Assembly (NCBI RefSeq): GCF_006345805.1
Contig: NC_043003.1
Location: forward strand, 14,632,001-14,696,000
From: Octopus sinensis
Taxonomy: Eukaryota
Length of the DNA stretch: 64,000 nucleotides
Direction: 5' to 3'
Shown here: in pieces, positions 12,445-58,900 of the stretch
Layout of the letters: every line of letters starts with the position of its first letter
Position numbering within the stretch: the first letter of the stretch is position 1
Made by a program: the position numbers and the translations under genes
Notes under the pieces: generated by a model
Told to the model about the DNA's origin: nothing
What the model saw: only the letters and a program-made list of their open reading frames with translations
The model's database searches: none

Positions 12445-15400
12445 AGTTTACGACCACCGCCCTTAACAGGTCGGGCGTATTTTCTTTCAACGTCTAGAAG
12501 TTTTCTGGGAATGTCTCGTCCTTTACTCTTAGTGGGGGATTGGAATGCTACCTTGGACACGCATGTAACTACGTGGGTAGAGATAGGAATAGATGGGGTG
12601 CAAATGCCTCAGAGACCTGCTCAGACGCTTTCAACTGTCTGACAGGTTCCGACTAGACCACCCGAATGCGCCAACGTGGACATGGAGCAACCGCATCGGG
12701 TCGGTCGAGATCGTATCTAGATAGGATACTGTGTAGGACAGTAGATGAGAGATAGCATGGATGTCCACAATTCCACATAGTCAGCTACACGGATCACAAA
12801 CTTGTGACATGTACGCTAGACTTAGGTAAGATACTTAGGCAGGGTCCCGGATACTGGAAACTAAACGCGTCTTTCCCATCGAGACAAGTTTTCAGAGACC
12901 GGATTAGCACACTAGTAAAGAGGGCTTTGACGGGAGCCATCATCAACAACAAATGGTGGTTTGCCCTCAAGAGAGCAGTAAAAAGCAGAAGCGATTAGGT
13001 ACAGAGCAAAGCACTAGCCATAGATAGAAATAGAGTAGAGGGGTGAGCTAGTTAAGAAGCTAGAAGAGGCAATTAGAAGCGGCATCGCACCGACGTTTTG
13101 GCGGCGAGGTTGGCCCTCGACCACACTTCAACGCCAAACACGAAGGATGTGCTGTCAGAGCTAGGATGCGTGCTCTAAGGAACGAAGGTGTTGGAGCCGC
13201 GAGAGAGGGCCCCGGCGGCAGAGGCGCAACAGGGCAACAAAGCCACCATTCGGTCACTGGTAGATGAACAGGGGCGCGAATTGCTCGAGCCAAGTAAAAT
13301 GTGTGAGGCCTTTCAGCAGCATTTTGCCCGACTGTTCGGAACGAGTGGAGGGCAAGAACGTAGGGTGGACTTCAGTGCCTACCTACATAGCCTACCACGA
13401 CTCTCTCGACAAGAAGGCAGGGTGCTGTGAAGGTGCCATCACGGCGGCGGAAGTGCGGGAAGCGATGGTCAGAATGCTCGAGGGACAAATCACCGGGTTT
13501 GGATGGTCTACCCTACGAGCTTTAACAATTGTATGCCAGACTTGTTTGGAGATATCTCTTGGCGGCGTGTACTGCAACTGGCAGCAAAACGGGAGCATTC
13601 CTGGTTTTGTGAGCCGAGGAGCCGTAACACTGCTGAAGAAAGATCTAAACAAGGGAAATGTAATAGATAACTTTAGGCCCATCACTCTGCTTAATGCAGA
13701 CTTGAAAATTTTGGCCAAGGTGCTAGCCAAGAGTTGGCGCTTGTCATCGAGAAAACTGGTCGAAAGGCGCAAACATGCGCCGTGCCAGCCGGACCATCCA
13801 TTACAACCTCCACCTGATCGCTACATCATAGACAGGGTAGTTAACGAACCTGGCATGGGTTGGGGCGCTGATCAATTTGGATCAATCGAAAGCTTTCGAT
13901 AGGGTGGACCATCGATACTTGGAGGCGGTCCCTCGGAGAGGCTGGCTTCGGTCCCGTCTTCCGCGGCTGGATAGCCGCTTTGTACAGAGGCATCCGTTCG
14001 GTAAATTTCGCGTGAATGGACATCTACGAGACCCTTCGACATCGCACTTTCGGGTCCGTCAGGGTATGCCCCTCTCGGCGCTTCTATACGTATTGACTCT
14101 CGAGCCATTATTGCGGAAGCTGGCAACCTTGAGAGGCATCCCGCGAGAACTGGGATGCGGGACGAGCGTGTCTGCATACGCGGACGACGTCACCGTCAAT
14201 AGTGTCTAGCCACGAGCACATCGAGCAGGTCGGCGAGACCTGAAAAACTACGAAGCGTGACAGGAGCGAAAATCAACTGGGAAAAGTCAGTGGGCTTGCG
14301 ACTAGAGCACCTGGAGAAGCAAGCCCATGCCGTCCACCAGCGCCTCTGTCGTGGGACGCTGGACCGACGCCCGGTTGAGTTGCTCGGGGTCTGGTTTGGT
14401 CCGGACCTCCATGGAGAAGAACTGGAACGAGATAACGAGTAGGGTGGTCACTCTTGCCCGGCAATGGCCGAGAGGAAACTGTCCCTAAAAGGGTCGGGCG
14501 GAGGTGGCGAACACGTACAATCGCGTCCGTCATCTACTACCGCCTGACGTCGTACCTTGTCCCGACCCTACCATCACCAAACTACAACGCATTCTCTTTC
14601 GCTTCTTGTGGAAAGGAGTGTCCCGATGGTCAGGCGATCCATTTGCTGTCAACACCCGTTAAAAGGAGGGCTGGGCATGCCGTGGTTGATGATGCGCAGA
14701 CACGCGCTGAGACTGCGACATCTCTGGCTCTATGTAGACGACGGTGAACAGCGTGGTCGCCGTTTGTGAGGCACGCTTTCCCCAGCTCGTCTCCATGACC
14801 GAACTGCAGTCGTGGATCAAAAGAGGCGAAGAAGGGGCGAATGGCACCGCGAGTGTCGCGTTGCTCTCAAGCAACTCTGCCGTCCTGGGTCGACCTTGAG
14901 TGACTTCAACACAACCAAAGCATTCTATAGGGGTTTAAGTGGAGGGGAGGTAATGACGACGAGCTCGGGGCGAACCTGGACGTCGACGAGGAGTACCTGA
15001 CCCGCCTGTTCAGGACGACTTTCGGGCCAGGGCCCATGGACAACTTCCAGAGATCCTGGCCTGGCAGTGCTAACCGAGAAAGGCGCTACCCGTTCGGGAT
15101 AAGCTCTACAGACACGGCTCGAGAAACACGGGGCCGACCTCCCGAGATGCGGTCAGAGCGATGAAACCGTTCTGCACGCACTCGTGCAGTGTCCAACACT
15201 TTCCGACCTGTGGGCTTATGTCGAACAACTGCTGTCACGTGTGGGACGAGTCGTTTTATACATCTGAGTCCTATCGTTAATATTGTCACGCCTCCTCCTT
15301 CAAACGGGAAGGAAGAGCTATTTTCATCATCCTTGTTGCTATGGCGAAAGAATGTATCTGTGGACGCGTTGAAAGGATTGGAGACAAACACTTTCCTCTC

Positions 15401-15953
15401 TGTCAATCTCTCATCAACTTCTTCAAGTACCACTTGAAAAGGAAGTGAGAGTAGAGAGGCAAGTTTTGTCTAGCGAATGTTTTAAAAAAGATGGGTGAAT
15501 GTAGCAAGAATGCACGTATGAATGACGAAGCCCCTTGAGCATGATCCTATGAACCCAGAAATTGGAAAACAGAGAGTTGCTATATTTGCAAAAAAAAAAA
15601 AAAAAAAGAAATATAACATGTGACTCCATTGACCGAGGTTACCGTGGTCTTTTCCGTAGGCTTTTCTTTCCACGGTAAACCTCACCTGTCCTCCCCTTTA
15701 CACTTCATATCGACATTTCTGTGATAACGATCCCTATTGATCAATTTTTTTTTTTTTTCTCTTTTTTTTCTTCCTCTCCCCCTTTTTTTTTAACCCCCCT
15801 TTTTTTGTCCTCTTTCTCTCCTTTACGATCCCTTTTGATCGAAACTCCCCCTTCCTATTTTTTTTTTTTTTTTTTTTTTTAAACCTTGAAAAAAAGCTCT
15901 ACCTTGTAATTTGTTCTATCTGTGTGCAGCCCTGTGTGGCTAATAAAGAAACA
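12445..15953 (+). mobile_element. 5'-truncated L1-superfamily (Tx1-like) LINE; ORF2 APE+RT, frameshifted
   Basis: Colinear motifs across frames: LLLVGDWNATLD, DHKLV, GPGYWKLNAS, NFRPITLLNADLKILAKVLA, DQSKAFDRVDH, VRQG.PLS, AYADDVT, GAKINWEKS, KGGLG; AATAAA at 15942; GC- and CpG-rich relative to flanks. Confidence 0.93.
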
Positions 15954-18577: not shown

Positions 18578-19814
18578 ACTTTCTCACCTTCCTGAGCATC
18601 AAACTAATACACCTGTTTGTTGTTTATACACCTGTCTTTGTCTTTTGCTTTACTGTAAATTTCAACTATATGTGTGTGTGTGTTGTGTGTGTGTGTGGTG
18701 TTTGTGTGTGTGTGTGTGTGTGTTTGTGTGTGTGTATGAATGTTGAGAATATTGATCTTCCATGTTTGTGTGAAATAGCTGTGACACTGACATTTCTTGT
18801 TGATATTTCTGTGTTTTTGAAGCCCTTCACTTGGAAACAATTAAGGGTTAGTGACAAGAAGAACGCCCAGCCACTAAAACCTTACCTCAAATTAACTCCA
18901 CCTCTAACTCATGCTAGCACAGAATAAACAACTGAAAATATGAAATTATCTTGAATGAAATAAAGCTTTTTTTTTAAAACTAGGGTATTACTCATAAGAC
19001 GACAGTTAACTTTAATAAATATGCTTTTGTCACTAAGGATAATATCAAGAAATACAAAGGGTGTATATGCAATAATAATAATTTAAATTTCATTAAATTT
19101 TCTTGATGCTAAAACAAGATGATGGAATGAAATGCTAATTTTCAAAAGAAAAATATTTATTAGCTTAATATCAAATATAACAAACTTCTCATTTGTATAT
19201 TTGCAATAAATAAATGCTATTATTTTCCTAAATTTTATCAGCATAATCACTATCTACTCCATTGTAAACCTATCTCGGCAAAATTTCATTAAAAAAAAAA
19301 CAAAATATATAATTTTTCAGAAATACATAAGATGCACGACCTGTTCCTCTTTTGCTAATTCTCTCTCTCTCTCTCTCTCTCTCTCTTCCTCTCTCTTTAT
19401 ATATAATGTAAAGCATCACTAGAGAAATCAGCCAACCAACCAACCAACCAACCAACCAACCAACCAACCAACCAGCCAGCCAGCCAAGTAACATTTACGT
19501 CAGCTGTTGTTGAATAGAAATTGCTTAGGCAAGCAATGGAGAAGGAAGTGGGTGTGGTGATTAGAGTAATTGAAGGGTTGGAAAGTCTGATGCTGTGTTC
19601 CAATTGTTCTCCGTGGCATGTTATATATATATATCATGATAAGTGCTGCATTCTTACATCGGCAATTTTGTCTTCCTTGGAAAATAATCACCAACATCCT
19701 CCTCCTCCTCCTCCTCATCATCATCATCATCATCATCATCAACACCACCATCACCACCACCACCACCACCACCACCACCACCACCACCACCACCACCACC
19801 ACCACCACCATCAC

Positions 19815-20225
19815 CAGTTGCGTATTGGGGTCGATTTAATTGACTGGCCTCCTCCCCCAAAATTTCAGTCCTTGTGTCTGGAGTAGAAACGAATAAATTA
19901 AGTACCAGTTGTGTACTGGGGTCGATCTAATCAACTGCCCCCCCTTCCCCCAAAATTTTAGGCCTTGTGCCTAGAGTAGAAAGGATTATTATAATTATTA
20001 TTATTAAGGTGGCAAGCTGGCAGAAACGTTAGCACACTGGGCAAAATGCTTAGTGGTATTTCATCTGTCTTTACGTTCTGTGTTCAAATTGCGTCGAGGT
20101 CAACTTTGCCTTTCATCCTTTCAGGGTTGATAAATTAAGTACCAGTTGTATACTGTGGTCGGTCTAATTGACTGGCCCCCATTCCAAAAATTTTGGGGCT
20201 TGTGTGTTGAGTAGAAAAGAATTGT
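19815..20225 (+). mobile_element. Nin/Deu-domain SINE family B (short-tail variant), tandem copies
   Basis: gcctttcatcctttcagggttgataaattaagtaccag core; head ggtggcaagctggcagaaacgttagc. Confidence 0.85.
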
Positions 20226-20289: not shown

Positions 20290-21205
20290 ATGTCGAGGGG
20301 TTCCAGTGGATTTGACCAATGGGACAGCCTGCTTATGAAATTAATGCACTTATGATTGAGCATTCTACAGGCATGTGTACCCTTCGTGTAACTCTCAAGG
20401 AGATTCAGCATGACAGAGAACATAACAAGGCAGGTCCTTTGAAATACAGGTACTACACATTTTTGCCAGATGAGCAGAGAAGGTGGCAAGCTGGCAGAAA
20501 TGTTAGCACACCGGGCGAAATGCTTAGCGGTATTTTGTCTGCTGCTACGTTCTGAGTTCAAATTCCACCAAGGTCGACTTTGCCTTTCATCCTTTCGGGG
20601 TCGATTAAATAGTACCAGTTATGCACTGGGGTTGATATAATCGACTCAATCTGTTTGTCTGTCCTTGTTTGTCCTCTCTGTGTTTAGGCCCTTGTGGGTA
20701 GGAAAGAAATAGGAATTTCGTCTGCTGCTACGTTCTGAGTTCAAATTCCGCCGAGGTTGACTTTGCTTTCATCCTTTCGGCGTCGATTAAATAAGTATCA
20801 GTTACGCACTGGGGTTGATATAATCAACTTAATCCGTTTGTCTATCCTTATTTGTCCTCTCTGTGTTTAGCCCCTTGTGGGCAGTAAAGAAATAGGTATT
20901 TCGTCTGTCGCTACGTTCTGAGTTCAAATTCCACCGAGGGCAACTTTGCCTTTCATCCTTTCAGGGTTGATAAATTAAGTACCAGTTATGCACTGGGGTC
21001 GATATGATCGACTTAATTCATTTGTCTGTCCTTGTTTGTCCCTTCTGTGTGTAGCCCCTTGTGGGCAATAAAGAAATAAGATGAGCAGAGAAGGACGACA
21101 TGAAATAAAGTCTTGCTCAAGAACACAACACGCTGCCAGGAATTGAACTCGTTATTGTTACGATCACAAAGCTAAATGCCCTAACCACTCAGTCATGCAC
21201 CTTCA
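20290..21205 (-). mobile_element. tRNA-derived SINE family D, interrupted by a family B trimer
   Basis: Similar to 22150-22400 (+) and 23257-23560 (-); the two halves rejoin across the TSD. Confidence 0.7.
20482..21078 (+). mobile_element. SINE family B head-to-tail trimer (unit about 183 bp) with one 16-bp TSD
   Basis: TSD agatgagcagagaagg at 20468-20483 and 21079-21094; junctions at about 20712 and 20895. Confidence 0.9.
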
Positions 21206-22400: not shown

Positions 22401-22462
22401 CAGCAGCAGTTTATGTATGTATGTAATTGTGTATGACAAACTACTTTCAATTTCCATCTACC

Positions 22463-23156
22463 AAAGTGATCAATATCAACCCCTGGGGGTCGATGGGAAT
22501 ATTTAAGGGGTCAATAAATTTCCATCTACCAAAGTGATCAATATCAACCCCTGGGGGTCGATGGGAATATTTAACGGGGTCAATAAATGCACATCTACTT
22601 TATTATTATTATTATTATTATTATCTATTTATTTTCTTGTACATGCCTGGGGGTTGATGAGGGATCAAAGAGTCCATGGAGTTGATGATGGGGTCAAGGA
22701 TTCCATGAAGTGATCAATGAGGGGTCAAGGATTCCATGAAGAGGTCGATGAGAGGGTCAAGGATTCCATGAAGGTGTTGATGAGGGAGTCAATGATTCCA
22801 TGAAGTGATCAATGGGAGGTCAAGGATTCCATGAAGAGGTTGATGAGGGGCTCAAAGATTGCATGAAGGGGTCGATGAAGGGGTTCAAGGATTCCATGAA
22901 GGGGTCAACGAGGGTTCAAGGATTCCATGAAGGGGTCAACAAAGGAGTTCAAGGATTCCATGAAGGGGTTGATGAGGGGGTCAAGGATTCCATGAAGTTA
23001 TCAATGGGAGGTCAAGGATTCCATGAAGGGGTCGATGAAGGTTCAAAGATTCCATGAAGGGATCAACGAGGGGGTTCAAGGATTCCATGAAGGGGTTGAT
23101 GAGGGGTCATGGATTCCATGAAGGAGTTGATGGTTCAAAAGGTTTGAGGACCCCTG
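22463..23156. mobile_element. hAT-like MITE carrying a ~30-bp minisatellite, inserted into a family A SINE
   Basis: About 16 units of ggggtcaaggattccatgaaggggtcgatga (22650-23130); terminus aaaggtttgaggacccctg; SINE sequence resumes at 23157. Confidence 0.6.
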
Positions 23157-23614: not shown

Positions 23615-24205
23615 ATTATTTATTTCTTTATTGGCCACAGGGGGCTAAACATAGAAGGAACAGACAAGGTCAGACAAAGGGATTAAGTCGATTACATTGA
23701 CCCCAGTGTGTAACTGGTACTTATTTTATTGACCCCGAAAGGATGAAAGGCAAAGTCGACCTTGGAGGAATTTGAACTCAGAACGTAACGGCAGATGAAA
23801 TACCTATGTCTTTACTACCCACAAGGGGCTAAACATAGAGAGGACAAACAAGGACATCGACCTTAGTGTGTAACTGGTACTTATTTAATTGAGGCAAGCA
23901 GCGAGCTGGCAGAAACGTTAGCACGCCGGGCGAAATGCGTAGCCGTATTTCGTCTGCTGTTACGTTCTGAGTTCAAATTCCGCTGAGGTCGACTTTGCCT
24001 TTCATCCTTTCGAGGTCGATAAATCAAGTACCAGTTACACACTGGGGTCGATGTAATCGACTTAATCCGTTTGTCTGTCCTTGTTTGTCCCCTCTATGTT
24101 TAGCCCCTTGTGGGTAGTAAAGAAATAGGTACTTATTTAATTGACTCTGAAAGGATGAAAGGCAAAGTTGACCTTGGCGGAATTTGAACTCAGAAGGTAA
24201 CAGTA
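23615..24205. mobile_element. SINE family B multimer (-) with a family B monomer (+, 23893-24127) nested inside
   Basis: 17-bp TSD ggtacttatttaattga at 23876-23892 and 24128-24144. Confidence 0.88.
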
Positions 24206-24214
24206 GATGCCTGA

Positions 24215-25285: not shown

Positions 25286-26070
25286 TATGTATATATATAT
25301 AATATAATATAAATAATATATAAATATATGCATATATACATACATATATGTACATACCTACATATATATATGTATACATACATGCATATATGTGCACAGG
25401 ACATCAAAAAAACGTTGAACACGATGAGAAACGAAAACATAAAAACATAATGATAATGATGATATATTTATGTGTGTATGTGTGTGTGTGTATGTATATA
25501 TGTGCATCTTTGTTTCTGGGTTTGTCCCCCACCACAGTTAAATAACCAGTGTTAGCGTGTTTATTTCCCCGTAATTTAGTGGTTCAGCAAATGAAAATGA
25601 TGATATAAGTAGCAGGCTTCAAAAAAAAAATTTGAAATAAATTTCAAGGTGGTGCCCCAGCATGAGCACAGTCTAACAAATGAAGCATGTAAAAAATAGA
25701 AAATAGGAGATAAGAACTTGGAACATGATGGGTTGTATTTAATTGCCAGGTTGCCAGCTTGCCCACTGGCAAGTGGGCCCCTATGACATTAGAATCCATA
25801 TATGGGAGCCCATATTAGTATCTAAGGGGTACATCCCCTCATGTTTGAGAATTTTTAATTCACTCCTGGAAAAATGCACCAATTATTTCAGCCTGGCTGT
25901 GACTGTAGACGGATGAAGAGAATACTTTTAACAAAAAAAAAATAAATGATGGCATTGTAGTTGTGGGTGGGCCCCCTTGTTGATGTGGGTTGGCTCCCTT
26001 AGTCTCCTGATAAATGTTAGCAGTCAGATCAAATGTTAGCAGTCAGATCACACCCTACCATCTTAACCTA

Positions 26071-26292
26071 TTTCTTTACTGCCCACAAGGGGTTAAACAC
26101 AGAGAGGACAAACAAGGACAGACAAACGGATTAAGTCGATTATATCGACCCCAGTGCGTAACTGGTACTTAATTAATCGACCTCGAAAGGATGAAAGGCA
26201 AAGTCAACCTTGGCGGAATTTGAACTCAGAATGTAACGGCAGACGAAATACCGCTGAGCATTTCGCCCGGTGTGCTAAGGATTCTACCAGTG
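26071..26292 (-). mobile_element. SINE family B monomer with 16-bp TSD
   Basis: TSD ctaccatcttaaccta at 26055-26070 and 26295-26310. Confidence 0.9.
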
Positions 26293-26444
26293 GACTACCA
26301 TCTTAACCTAACCTGTCCAAGAGTACCTTTGGGCAGTTTCCTGCTTTACTGTGATCTAAAATAAGACTTTCCATCAAAAATTCTCATTCTGTTCTGAAAA
26401 TCTGTTTTTCTGTTGAAAAAATTATTTTACATTATTTACCTTAC

Positions 26445-27609: not shown

Positions 27610-28420
27610 AATGGTTTCAAATTTTGCCAGAAAGGCAGCCATTTTAGTGAAGGGGATGAGTCGATTACATTGACCCCAGTGTTTCACTGGTACTTAATTT
27701 GTTGACCCCAAAAGGATGAAAGGCAAAGTTTACCTTGGCAGAATTTGAACTCAGAACATAGCGACAGGTGAAATACCTATTTCTTTACTACCCATAAGAG
27801 GCTAAACACAGAGAAGACAAACAAGGACAGACAAATGGATTAAGTCGATTACATCGACCCCAGTGCGTAACTGGTATTTAATTTATCGACCCTGAAAGGA
27901 TGAAAGGCAAAGTCGACCTCGGTGGAATTTGAACTGAGAACGTAGCGACAGACGAAATACCGCTAAGCATGTCACCTGGCATGCTAACGTTTCAGCCAGC
28001 TTGCTGCCTTACTGTAGCTATAAAATAATAGCGAGTAAATATCGGTTCCAAATTTTGGCACAAGGCCAGCAGTTTTGGAAGAGGGTGTAAGTCAATTATA
28101 TCAACCCCAGTGTTAACCTGGTAGTCATTTTACTGACCCCAAAAGGATGAAAGGCAAAGTCATCCTCAGCAGAATTTGAACTCAGAACGTAAAGACCGAT
28201 GAAATACCGCGAAGCCTTTTGTCCAGCTTGCTAATGATTCGGCCAGCTCACTGCCTTTAGATTTAAATATAGGTTTCACGTTTTGGCACAAGGCCAGCAA
28301 TTTTGGGGCAGGGGTTGAGTCAATCACATCGACCCCAGTACTCAACTGGTACGTATCTTATTGATCTTGAAAGGATGAAAAACAAAGTCGAGCTCAGTGG
28401 AATTTTGAACTCAGAAATCA
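27610..28420 (-). mobile_element. Cluster of four SINE family B units
   Basis: aaaggatgaaaggcaaagt...gaatttgaactcagaac recurs four times. Confidence 0.88.
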
Positions 28421-53200: not shown

Positions 53201-53480
53201 AAGCCCGCAGGGGGACAGCCACTCTCTTGATGACCATTGCACCCCAAAGGGGATCCAGACTACTATACCCCTCTCCTATTCTTACCAAGGGCATAGCTAT
53301 GGTGGGGGCAAGCAGGGCACATGCATTGGACACCACTTTGGGACAGGGCGCAATTTTCACCAAGATCCTTTTCTAATTAAGCCATTTCTATGTGAGTTTC
53401 CCCTTTTTGGTTGGGGATGGGGGCATAATTTTGATGCTTGCCCTGGGCACCATTTGCCCTAGCTATGCCCCTGATTCTTA

Positions 53481-53897
53481 TTTCTTTATTGCCCACAAGG
53501 GGCTGAACATAGAGTGGACAAAAAGGGACAGACAAAGGGATTAAGTCAATTACATCGACGCCAGTGTGTAACTGGTACTTAATTTATCGATCCTGAAAGG
53601 ATGAATGGCAAAGTCGACCTCGGTTGAATTTGAACTCAGAACGTAACAGCAGACGAAATGCCTATTTCGTTACTACCCGCAAGGGGCTAAACACAGAGAA
53701 GACAAACAAGTACAGACAAACGGATTAAGTTGATTACATCGACCCCAGTGCATAACTGGTACTTAATTTTATCGACTCCGAAAGGATGAAAGGCAAAGTC
53801 GACCTCGGCAGAATTTGAACTCAGAACATAACAGCAGACGCAATACCGCTAAGCATTTTGCCCGGTGTGCTAACGATTCTGCCAGCTCATCGCCTTA
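53481..53897 (-). mobile_element. SINE family B dimer with one 16-bp TSD
   Basis: TSD atgcccctgattctta at 53465-53480 and 53907-53922. Confidence 0.9.
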
Positions 53898-54500
53898 GGA
53901 TCAACCATGCCCCTGATTCTTACCAACTAACTAACCTATCATCGTTTTTACTGGTTATGACTAACTTGGATCTGAACTCAGAAAACACAGAGCAAAGAAA
54001 CCAAACACTATAAGATATTTCTCTTTCGATGTTCTAATATTCTTTTAATTTACTGCCAAATTCTATTAAAGAACCATTACTTTGGATAAGTTTTTTCATT
54101 TGAGATTCATTTGAAAATTTTTGCGTTCGTCTAAGCCAAATGTTTACATCTTGCCATTATCGACATCAAGCGTTATTTAAAAACATTTATTGGAATAAAA
54201 TTCTTTGATCACTACCTAATCTGATGGTTACCTTCACTGACTGGCATGAAACTCAGTCATGGACCATTTAGCTACACTATATATTAATATATACATATAT
54301 ATATATACATAGATATATAAATACAAACATCCATACATGAATATGTGTTTCTCTGTATGCTAGTGTGCTTGTGTGTATGTGTACTTTTGTGCGTGTATGC
54401 ATGTATATCATGTGTGTGTGTATGTGTGTGATTGTGTGTACATATATTTATATACATATATATATACATATACATATCATCATCATCATCATCATCATCA

Positions 54501-58229: not shown

Positions 58230-58900
58230 CAAGGCAGTGAGTTGGTAGAAATGTTAGCATGCTTGGCGAAATGCTTAGCGATATTCCGTCTGTCTCTACG
58301 TTCTGAGTTCAAATTCCACCAAGGTCAACTTTAGCTTTCACTCTTTCGGGGTTAATAAATTAAGTACCAGTTGCGTAGTGGGGTAGATCTAATCGACTGG
58401 CCCTCACCCACCAAATTTTGGGCCTTGTGCCTATAATAGAAAGATTATTATTGTTAAGGTGGCGAGCAGGCAGAAATATTAGCATGCCAGGGGAAATGCT
58501 TAGCAGTATTTCATGTCTTTATGTTCAGAGTTCAAGTTCCGCTGAGGTCGAATTTGCCTTCCATCCTTTCAGGGTCAATAAATTAAGTACCAGTTGTGTA
58601 CTGGGATCGATCTAATCGACTGGCCCCCACCTCTCAAATAATTTTGGGCCTTGTGCCTATAGTAGAAAAGATTATTAATGTTAAGGTGGCAAGCTGGCAG
58701 AAACGTTAGCATGCCGGGCAAAATACTTAGTGGTATTTTGTCTGTCTTTACATTCTGAGTTCAAATTCCGCTGAGGTCAGTTGACTTTGTCTTTCATCCT
58801 TTCAGGGTCGATAAATTAAGTACTAGTTGCATACTGAGGTCAGTCTAATCAACAGCCCCCATCCCCCAATATTTCGTGCCTTATGCCTAGAGTAGAATAA
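58230..58900 (+). mobile_element. Three complete SINE family B (short-tail) copies in tandem
   Basis: ~225-bp units, each with its head, joined by gattatta..gttaaggtggc. Confidence 0.88.

What the first reader, a model, noticed from the sequence alone, without database searches (positions are those of the whole stretch)
20468..21094. SINE concatemers inserted as single events, with a fixed junction in the loop of the tRNA-derived hairpin
Seen: a trimer (20482-21078) and a dimer (53481-53897) of the Nin/Deu-domain SINE each lie inside a single 16-bp TSD, as does a monomer (26071-26292). Only the first unit has the 5' head. Later ~183-bp units start at the same position, with tail ...aaagaaatag joined to gtatttcgtctg; five such junctions occur at four loci (about 20712, 20895, 23805, 27775, 53660). 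That position is the apical loop of a 12-bp hairpin (cgggcgaaatgc-ttagcg-gtatttcgtctg) lying between the box A and box B-like elements, where an anticodon arm would be. Inference: multimers are reverse-transcribed as one cDNA. The exciting option is loop cleavage and circularisation (TSEN/RtcB-like) followed by rolling-circle reverse transcription, as in retrozymes but without a ribozyme. Simpler options are a tandem master locus or template jumping aided by the gaaat microhomology.
Basis: partly seen in the sequence, partly recalled or inferred. Interest (0 to 1): 0.75.

Follow-up and report, generated by a model that had tools for sequence, protein, structure and literature searches.

The report
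Jumping gene homes into itself
These chains of a short jumping gene (SINE) are real and share one fixed joint at over 31,000 places in the genome, but their units mostly come from different copies, so they are likely not rolled off an RNA circle; they likely form because new copies land at one short motif inside older copies, a choice likely steered by the RNA's own read-through end, and the fused pair is then likely copied as one.

Summary
Observation confirmed; the circle idea is not supported. The trimer, dimer and monomer each sit in one 16-bp TSD, and the junction occurs 31,246 times exactly.

Units of one array are mostly unlike. The trimer's units differ at 18-26 of 183 sites. Adjacent units differ by 8.9% within arrays against 9.5% between arrays. 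Last units belong to other subfamilies.

The junction is an insertion site. Copies with a GGGT tail insert at Y|GGT(A), and position 50 is the only such sense site in the SINE. True nested insertions there, with TSD and host head, exist (7 of 19 places). GGGC-tail copies prefer AGA and make a second fixed junction at position 17, outside the hairpin. An L1/Tx1-type LINE with the same tail shows no GGT preference (0 of 15).

Best reading: nested self-insertion, Pol III read-through, copying of the composite, then slippage between repeats. Target choice is likely set by the read-through RNA end pairing with the nicked DNA.

The scan reached this reading before on other DNA of this genome (e1-10356551, e1-10333072, e1-10333171).

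The parts
20468..20483 (+). left TSD of the trimer (last 4 bases overlap the SINE's first 4)
20480..20711 (+). unit 1: head with box A/B-like motifs, body, GGGT (A1-like) tail
20512..20541 (+). 13-bp hairpin with 4-nt loop in the head; C|GGTA target motif (consensus position 50) at 20529
20712..20894 (+). unit 2: head-less, starts at consensus position 50, GGGC (A2) tail
20895..21078 (+). unit 3: head-less, A2 tail; 26 of 183 sites differ from unit 2
21079..21094 (+). right TSD of the trimer (starts AGA, the A2 target class)
53480..53896 (-). A1-A2 dimer in one 16-bp TSD (53465-53480, 53907-53922); units differ at 26 of 183 sites
26070..26294 (-). A2 monomer with altered 5' end in a 16-bp TSD (26055-26070, 26295-26310)
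27615..28010 (-). A1-B chimera: A1 unit joined at position 50 to a head-less unit with a B-type tail; degenerate TSD seen by eye only
23622..24207 (-). 5'-truncated host dimer with a position-50 junction at about 23805, interrupted by a nested copy
23893..24127 (+). A1 monomer nested antisense into the host at T|GGTACTT; 17-bp TSD at 23876-23892 and 24128-24144
14700..15952 (+). 3' part of a broken LINE whose last ~45 nt are homologous to the SINE A tail, followed by (TATC)n; a sister of the closer partner family. Its 5' limit was not mapped.

Best explanation
The arrays are single insertions of composite SINE copies whose fixed junction is the element's own preferred insertion motif, and they likely arise by nested self-insertion followed by likely Pol III read-through and likely LINE-driven copying of the fused RNA. 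Steps: (1) Shown: an L1/Tx1-type LINE shares the SINE's 3' end; that it mobilises the SINE is inferred. (2) Shown: GGGT-tail (A1) copies often insert at Y|GGT(A) and GGGC-tail (A2) copies at (C/A)|AGA(A/T). (3) Shown: the only sense Y|GGT site in the SINE is position 50, and the only sense C|AGA(A/T) site is position 17. (4) Shown: nested insertions at 50 create head-body-tail plus head-less host. (5) Inferred: Pol III starts in the new head and reads through T4-free units; the RNA is primed at any tail and lands in one TSD. (6) Inferred: the 3-7 nt after the tail (GGUAUUU) pair with the nicked target, so daughters keep choosing GGT sites, including SINE heads, which closes a feedback loop. 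(7) Signature shown, timing inferred: roughly a fifth of adjacent units come from slippage or recombination between the repeats, which builds the long arrays.
For: Nested insertions at 50 with TSD and host head: 7 of 19 distinct places read (L040, L041, L046, L049, L050, L056, L060), plus L025. Control site on the antisense strand (T|GGTACTT): 111 matches, 11 of 12 read have the right-hand TSD, so the motif, not the hairpin, is hit. Targets in unique DNA: GG class 17 A1 and 1 A2, AG class 1 A1 and 10 A2, p=6e-6. Tail predicts junction: A1 to 50 in 129 of 130, A2 to 17 in 15 of 24 (type-blind sample 31 of 31 and 9 of 15). Genome-wide junction 17: 2,360 with a C tail, 355 with a T tail. Target match to the junction continues over positions 5-8 (50 of 96 against 30 expected; type-blind only 27 of 60 against 19, p=0.02) and stops at 9-12. 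Same-tail LINE: 0 of 15 exact ends followed by AGGT, 1 of 19 distinct flanks. In RNA run X21 about 90% of tails are GGGC and junction 17 outnumbers junction 50 by 1,127 to 70 reads; in X1 contigs GGGT and junction 50 dominate. No TTTT in either consensus. Crossover mosaics in L008, L018, L115, L062, L122. Precedent for short RNA-target pairing: L1 primes with 4 matching bases (PMC3649969, abstract); SART1Bm and R1Bm (PMC7265360, passages).
Against: No daughter was traced to a specific nested source locus. Sibling arrays were not detected (Mantel r=0.10, p=0.20, 46 arrays; 1 close pair in 816 B-unit pairs, and those two loci are neighbours), which needs many sources or shuffling. True nested loci are rare against multimers (1 of 59). 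12 of 19 places are head duplications or unresolved, and only 1 of 9 candidates at position 17 is nested. A1 is never last in the 35 type-blind multimers, although priming at internal tails predicts some. The same-tail LINE is low-copy and looks young, so it may not be the enzyme of the A1 burst. About half of A1 copies use TATA or GATA targets. T4 runs occur in 10 of 50 middle units. No Pol III transcript was observed.
Confidence: 0.62

Rival explanations
1. Composites are assembled anew during reverse transcription. RT starts on an A2 or B RNA and switches to another RNA, either by GGUA microhomology at position 50 or by homology anywhere in the shared body of a dimer RNA.
For: No sibling arrays. 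Last B units have an A-like 5' part more often than B monomers (13 of 31 against 21 of 116, p=0.008). 5' head duplications, which suggest RT re-priming, are common. L029 has tail + GGTATTTT + a full head inside one TSD-like repeat.
Against: No excess of 5' ends at 50 (0 of 14). End-to-end jumps to position 1-2 are 1 of 57 tail-to-SINE joints. Homologous switching can only pass on a junction that already exists, and nested insertion is seen making it. Contraction by recombination gives the same mosaics.
Confidence: 0.2
2. Same nested-insertion and read-through route, but the target is chosen only by the endonucleases of different L1/Tx1 subfamilies (one cutting at GGT, one at AGA), with no RNA pairing.
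For: Tx1 elements are often sequence-specific, and Kojima 2015 ascribes this mainly to the endonuclease (PMC4494074, passages). A sister LINE here is followed by ATATCT in 19 of 28 copies. Only the best 30 of 150 scored zf-RVT matches were read.
Against: The LINE with the A1 tail shows no GGT preference. Target class tracks a single tail base, and the match fades as GGT-ATTT, like pairing.
Confidence: 0.1
3. One reading: the RNA is cut in the hairpin loop, ligated tail-to-cut into a 183-nt circle and reverse-transcribed by rolling circle.
For: The cut lies at the edge of a stable hairpin loop (z about -3). 19 of 74 adjacent unit pairs are more alike than 95% of between-array pairs. Arrays of 6 or more units are homogeneous (3.3% within against 7.2% between). 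Junction-spanning RNA reads exist, but genomic arrays explain them.
Against: A circle has no head and gives identical units, yet arrays start with a head, mix subfamilies and end in A2 or B tails. The alike pairs show crossovers inside the body. A second junction at 17 lies outside the hairpin. No ribozyme or tRNA fold was found. The circle would need a second exact cut at the tail.
Confidence: 0.03
4. One tandem master locus, or a few, is transcribed and copied whole.
For: Subfamily depends on position: A1 is first in 20 of 27 typed and last in 0 of 11 typed A units.
Against: Last B units average 17.7% apart and span several B subfamilies. Many architectures occur. No correlation of unit 1 with unit 2 across arrays. 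A junction variant seen in two arrays occurs only 4 times genome-wide, twice in heads.
Confidence: 0.03

Closest known systems
TSD1-(SINE)n-TSD1 arrays of the blood clam Scapharca broughtonii (PMC11481361; passages read)
   Same: Mollusc tRNA-SINE multimers in one TSD, head only on the first unit, later units cut at the same head position.
   Different: There the non-final units also lack part of the tail, about 3% of SINEs are in arrays or palindromes, and unequal recombination is suggested. Here every unit keeps its tail, 35 of 105 A-tailed elements are multimers, units are of mixed subfamily, and the junction is a demonstrated insertion site.
SINEU-3 with Tx1 partners in crocodilians (PMC4494074; passages and section 14 read)
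   Same: SINE linked to Tx1 LINEs, with a target preference inside another repeat, a 16-bp TSD and tandem copies by sequential insertion.
   Different: Its target is a Mariner element, copies sandwich a TSD and are not described as copied composites. Here the target is the SINE's own head, and the preference is not shared by the same-tail LINE.
SINE-derived satellites of squamates (PMC10702118; passages read)
   Same: Tandem repeats of part of a SINE that grow more uniform with length; matches the 7-10-unit arrays L011, L012, L024.
   Different: Most arrays here have 2-4 heterogeneous units and moved as whole retrocopies; seeding by self-insertion is shown.
RNA-target pairing at TPRT initiation: L1 snap-velcro (PMC3649969, abstract and outline), SART1Bm/R1Bm (PMC7265360, passages; the R1Bm paper itself was not held)
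   Same: A few RNA bases pair with the nicked DNA and help pick the site.
   Different: Here the pairing bases would come from read-through into a captured copy of the element itself, making the address heritable and self-directed.
Metazoan non-LTR retrozymes (PMC7761336; passages read)
   Same: 150-300-bp units in tandem.
   Different: No hammerhead found, a SINE head and LINE-derived tail are present, and units are not copies of one circle.

Membership tests
non-LTR retrozyme / rolling-circle retroelement | self-cleaving ribozyme in each unit | tested here: not met
   Rfam scan of 20400-21150 at E up to 10: 0 matches
non-LTR retrozyme / rolling-circle retroelement | units of an insertion copied from one circle, so alike and of one type | tested here: not met
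   55 of 74 adjacent pairs lie within the between-array range
non-LTR retrozyme / rolling-circle retroelement | abundant circular RNA | not testable with these tools
   junction reads cannot separate circles from genomic arrays
TSEN/RtcB substrate (pre-tRNA-like) | tRNA cloverleaf with a canonical anticodon arm | tested here: not met
   ARAGORN 0 genes; Rfam 0; 13-bp stem with 4-nt loop; box A to box B about 19 nt longer than in a short-arm tRNA (my count; canonical spacing recalled)
tRNA-derived SINE with LINE-derived tail | box A and box B in the head | tested here: inconclusive
   motifs seen by eye in the consensus; no tRNA model matches; Pol III transcription untested
tRNA-derived SINE with LINE-derived tail | 3' end shared with a LINE of the same genome | tested here: met
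   12 of 30 zf-RVT loci end like the A1 tail (alignment score 56-64), the last 27 nt identical in the best copies
tRNA-derived SINE with LINE-derived tail | short, high copy, flanked by TSDs | tested here: met
   232-nt consensus; 22,712 exact head 22-mers; TSDs found for 51 of 119 elements, mode 16 bp
Nin/Deu-domain SINE | central domain alignable to Nin/Deu consensus | not tested
L1/Tx1-clade LINE (partner) | ORF1 with CCHC knuckle; ORF2 with AP endonuclease, RT and zf-RVT | tested here: met
   L276: 349-aa and 1128-aa ORFs with Pfam hits; best solved relative human L1 ORF2p, E 2e-68
L1/Tx1-clade LINE (partner) | RT phylogeny placing it in Tx1 rather than L1 | not tested
   no named Tx1 reference proteins were on hand; the Tx1 label is a recalled resemblance
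SINE-derived satellite | long, locally homogenised tandem array | tested here: not met
   not met for the window's arrays; met for L011, L012, L024 elsewhere
TSD1-(SINE)n-TSD1 arrays (blood clam type) | one TSD, head on the first unit only | tested here: met
TSD1-(SINE)n-TSD1 arrays (blood clam type) | non-final units with truncated tails | tested here: not met
   non-final units end in the full tail

The most novel reading that the evidence does not exclude
The SINE carries a heritable, RNA-encoded address. The bases read through after its LINE-derived tail pair with the target and override a loosely cutting L1/Tx1 endonuclease. Once a copy landed in a SINE head, the address became the SINE's own sequence, so the family homes into itself and spreads as ever-longer composites. 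Different lineages locked onto different self-sites (position 50 or 17).
Probability: 0.5. Interest if true: 0.72.

Novelty: new variant of a known kind. Interest (0 to 1): 0.5.

Why it matters
If true, a non-coding passenger RNA can set the insertion site of a LINE enzyme through a few read-through bases, and this address is inherited and self-reinforcing. That gives a direct, testable route from dispersed SINEs to tandem arrays and satellites, and it explains roughly 10^5 fixed junctions in one genome without any circular RNA. An intact partner LINE (L276) makes the pairing rule testable in a standard retrotransposition assay. The ingredients (nested insertion, read-through, short primer pairing, SINE arrays) are each known; their closed loop was not found in the papers searched.

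Tried and rejected
Rolling circle and TSEN/RtcB: rejected on unit heterogeneity and the missing tRNA or ribozyme fold.

'gaaat' microhomology jump: it would leave GCTTAGC in the junction, which is absent.

RT stall or cleavage at the loop: no A-tailed 5' truncation at 50 in the type-blind sample. Across all loci two B-type hits start at 50-51 without a tail upstream (L013, L096), which may be alignment trimming.

An R4/Dong or RTE partner was my first guess from memory; I dropped it once the L1/Tx1-type tail was found. A pattern for a hybrid of the (TATC)n-LINE and the SINE tail found nothing.

Head-plus-head patterns over-call nested insertion: 5 of 19 places at 50 are head duplications, and 8 of 9 at 17 lack the right-hand TSD.

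The sibling-array search was negative and underpowered. Target memory in the LINE itself: one pair shares 6 nt and one shares 5 nt, which chance could give.

Run search: no RNA holder listed. Raw RNA runs X21-X23 are unstranded and fragmented and showed no pile-up of ends; this says nothing about cleavage or circles.

Nin-domain check by motif search: empty. Supplements of the other papers were not opened, and Repbase/Dfam entries and older octopus SINE papers were not available, so the family or its dimers may already be catalogued there.

Full report
1. Observation. The three insertions, their 16-bp TSDs and the five junctions are at the stated places. The junction 22-mer has 5 matches in the window against 0 in 100 shuffles, and 31,246 exact matches in the 2.72-Gb genome with 0 for the reversed control. 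The intact head 22-mer has 22,712. In 1.264 Mb of sample, 10 exact matches correspond to 45 junctions found by alignment, so roughly 10^5 junctions exist. This is a rough scaling. The genome is octopod-like: a named homologue of a resident LINE comes from Argonauta hians, 64% identical.

2. Sample. I read the window plus 120 stretches of 10 kb taken without regard to array type. The C1 stretches were chosen in SINE-dense regions, so this sample is blind to type, not to density. I also read 20 stretches centred on exact junctions and loci from pattern searches. Elements at stretch edges were dropped. Two SINE types share head and body to about position 168: type A, with tail variants GGGT (A1) and GGGC (A2), and an older type B with several tails. 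Of 105 type-blind elements with an A tail, 70 are monomers, 26 dimers, 5 trimers and 4 tetramers. Of 57 tail-to-SINE joints, 45 go to position 50, 10 to position 17 and 2 elsewhere. A TSD was called for 20 of 91 multimers, some weakly; 9 of these enclose A..B chimeras.

3. Units are not copies of one circle. The trimer's units differ at 18, 24 and 26 of 183 sites (11, 15 and 16 outside CpG), and the dimer's at 26, while their TSDs are perfect. Adjacent units in arrays of up to 5 differ by a median 8.9% outside CpG, against 9.5% between arrays; 19 of 74 pairs fall below the 5th percentile. Last units of the 35 type-blind multimers are A2 (11), B (16), untyped A (3) or truncated (5), never A1; first units are A1 in 20 of 35. 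A circle has no head and one tail type, so it cannot give these arrays. The alike minority shows middle units whose 5' part matches the downstream neighbour and whose 3' part matches the upstream one (L008, L018, L115, L062, L122). That is a crossover between direct repeats. Arrays of 6 or more units are homogenised (3.3% against 7.2%). Whether this happens in DNA after insertion or during RT is not resolved.

4. The junction is an insertion site. TSDs were found for 51 of 119 A-ended elements. They start GG in 19 (17 A1), AG in 11 (10 A2), TA in 13, GA in 5 and otherwise in 3. The base before is G in 1 of 51, and the A after AAAGAAAT is usually not in the left copy. The consensus has one sense Y|GGT site (50), one antisense (T|GGTACTT) and one sense C|AGA site (17). 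A pattern for host head + TSD + new head at 50 gave 59 matches. Of 19 distinct places read, 7 are nested insertions whose TSD matches the host on both sides, 5 are head duplications and 7 are unresolved or not nested. L046 is a trimer nested in an old host. The antisense site gave 111 matches, 11 of 12 with both TSD copies; the window holds one. So site 50 is an ordinary motif target. What is special is that only sense insertions leave a complete tail downstream and can be copied on. At 17 the evidence for nesting is thin (1 of 9), but the junction is common and tied to the A2 tail (2,360 against 355).

5. Partner LINE. A LINE end in the window led to a (TATC)n-targeting family with a related tail. 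A search for zf-RVT then found a family whose end matches the A1 tail (12 of 30 loci). One copy is intact, with CCHC ORF1 and endonuclease-RT-zf ORF2, closest to human L1 ORF2p among solved structures. None of its 15 exact ends is followed by AGGT; 1 of 19 distinct flanks is, against 23 of 49 A1 ends in non-SINE DNA. Among AGG-starting A1 targets the match to the junction continues over ATTT (50 of 96 against 30 expected) and ends at the next four bases (18 of 96 against 21). Two of the 24 rows look like diverged SINE hosts, and the type-blind subset is weaker (27 of 60, p=0.02). This favours pairing of read-through RNA with the primer. It does not prove it: the LINE is low-copy, and other enzymes may have acted.

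6. Reads. No run on record as RNA was listed as a holder. Raw RNA runs of coded organism G carry about 90% GGGC tails, and junction 17 outnumbers junction 50 on both references (783 to 54; 1,127 to 70). Contigs of run X1 show the reverse. The head hairpin is shared, so the tail, not the hairpin, predicts the junction. The libraries cannot show ends, strand or circles.

7. Mechanism. Nested insertion creates the junction (shown). The new head drives Pol III through units whose consensus has no T4 (inferred). The LINE enzyme primes at a tail, using the next bases to pair with the nick (inferred), and the composite lands in one TSD (shown). Composites with intact heads become sources, and repeats expand or contract by slippage (signature shown). 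Against this: only 1 of 59 multimers is a nested locus, no siblings were found, and last B units are often mosaic (13 of 31 against 21 of 116). Template switching between RNAs therefore keeps 0.2, endonuclease-only targeting 0.1, the circle 0.03 and a single master 0.03.

8. Known relatives. Arrays with one TSD and a head only on unit 1 are described in a blood clam (PMC11481361, passages). Tx1-linked SINEU-3 targets a Mariner and forms tandems by sequential insertion (PMC4494074, passages and section 14). SINE-derived satellites occur in squamates (PMC10702118, passages) and a limpet (PMC11121367, passages). Short RNA-target pairing is shown for L1 (PMC3649969, abstract) and proposed for SART1Bm and R1Bm (PMC7265360, passages). 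Retrozymes need a hammerhead (PMC7761336, passages). A 2026 octopus repeat annotation lists L1-Tx1 and many unclassified SINE families, and the passages I saw do not mention these arrays (PMC13282606). PMC4758252 (passages, 4 supplement files searched) and PMC5804259 (passages) gave no sequence to test the Nin label. Nine searches found no paper on a self-homing SINE; older subscription papers, Repbase and unopened supplements could hold one.

9. Earlier scan notes. Three unreviewed notes on other pieces of this genome agree (e1-10356551, e1-10333072, e1-10333171), and two suggest related homing (e1-8665859, e1-10109858). They are not independent support.

10. Verdict. Real and genome-wide; not a ribozyme-free retrozyme. 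It is a new variant of known SINE behaviour: self-targeted nesting with copied composites, probably steered by the RNA's read-through end. Interest 0.5; 0.72 if the heritable address is confirmed.

Noticed in passing
window 14700-15952 (+); L190-L219: Broken LINE 3' end with a tail homologous to the SINE A tail; this family is followed by ATATCT in 19 of 28 copies, so it targets (TATC)n microsatellites.
   Followed up: partly
L276 651-5390 (-): Intact two-ORF L1/Tx1-type LINE (349 aa and 1128 aa) with the A1 tail; several other zf-RVT matches have open frames of 1,126-1,140 aa.
   Followed up: partly
L032, L034, L042, L051; G000:C3430:1370-2208: Tandem repeats of only the SINE head (65-76-bp period, up to about 10 copies) placed before a full copy.
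   Followed up: partly
window 23893-24127 and many monomers: A subfamily with C at position 50 has lost the GGTA self-target and mostly uses TATA or GATA targets (AGGT in 2 of 22 monomers); it may be an escape from self-insertion.
   Followed up: partly
L034, L082, L016, L006, L060, L167, L101, L186: The same AGAAAT stutter of the tail occurs at junctions and at unique-site insertions, suggesting one initiation process for both.
   Followed up: no
runs X21-X23 against X1: The dominant junction differs between coded organisms (17 in G, 50 in A) and follows the dominant tail type.
   Followed up: partly
window 58231-58898, 19813-20217, 28046-28416: Runs of 2-4 head-to-tail B-type SINEs separated by ATT repeats; probably sequential insertion into their own (ATT)n tails.
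   Followed up: no
window 22449-22588 and 22650-23132: A 68-bp dimer and a 31-bp minisatellite that both carry the SINE motif GGGGTCGAT.
   Followed up: no
L258, L248, L249; L261, L286: Partner LINE copies inserted at different positions of the same host repeats.
   Followed up: no
L223 6810-7499 (-): Reading frame resembling an LTR-retrotransposon pol fragment upstream of the LINE copy.
   Followed up: no
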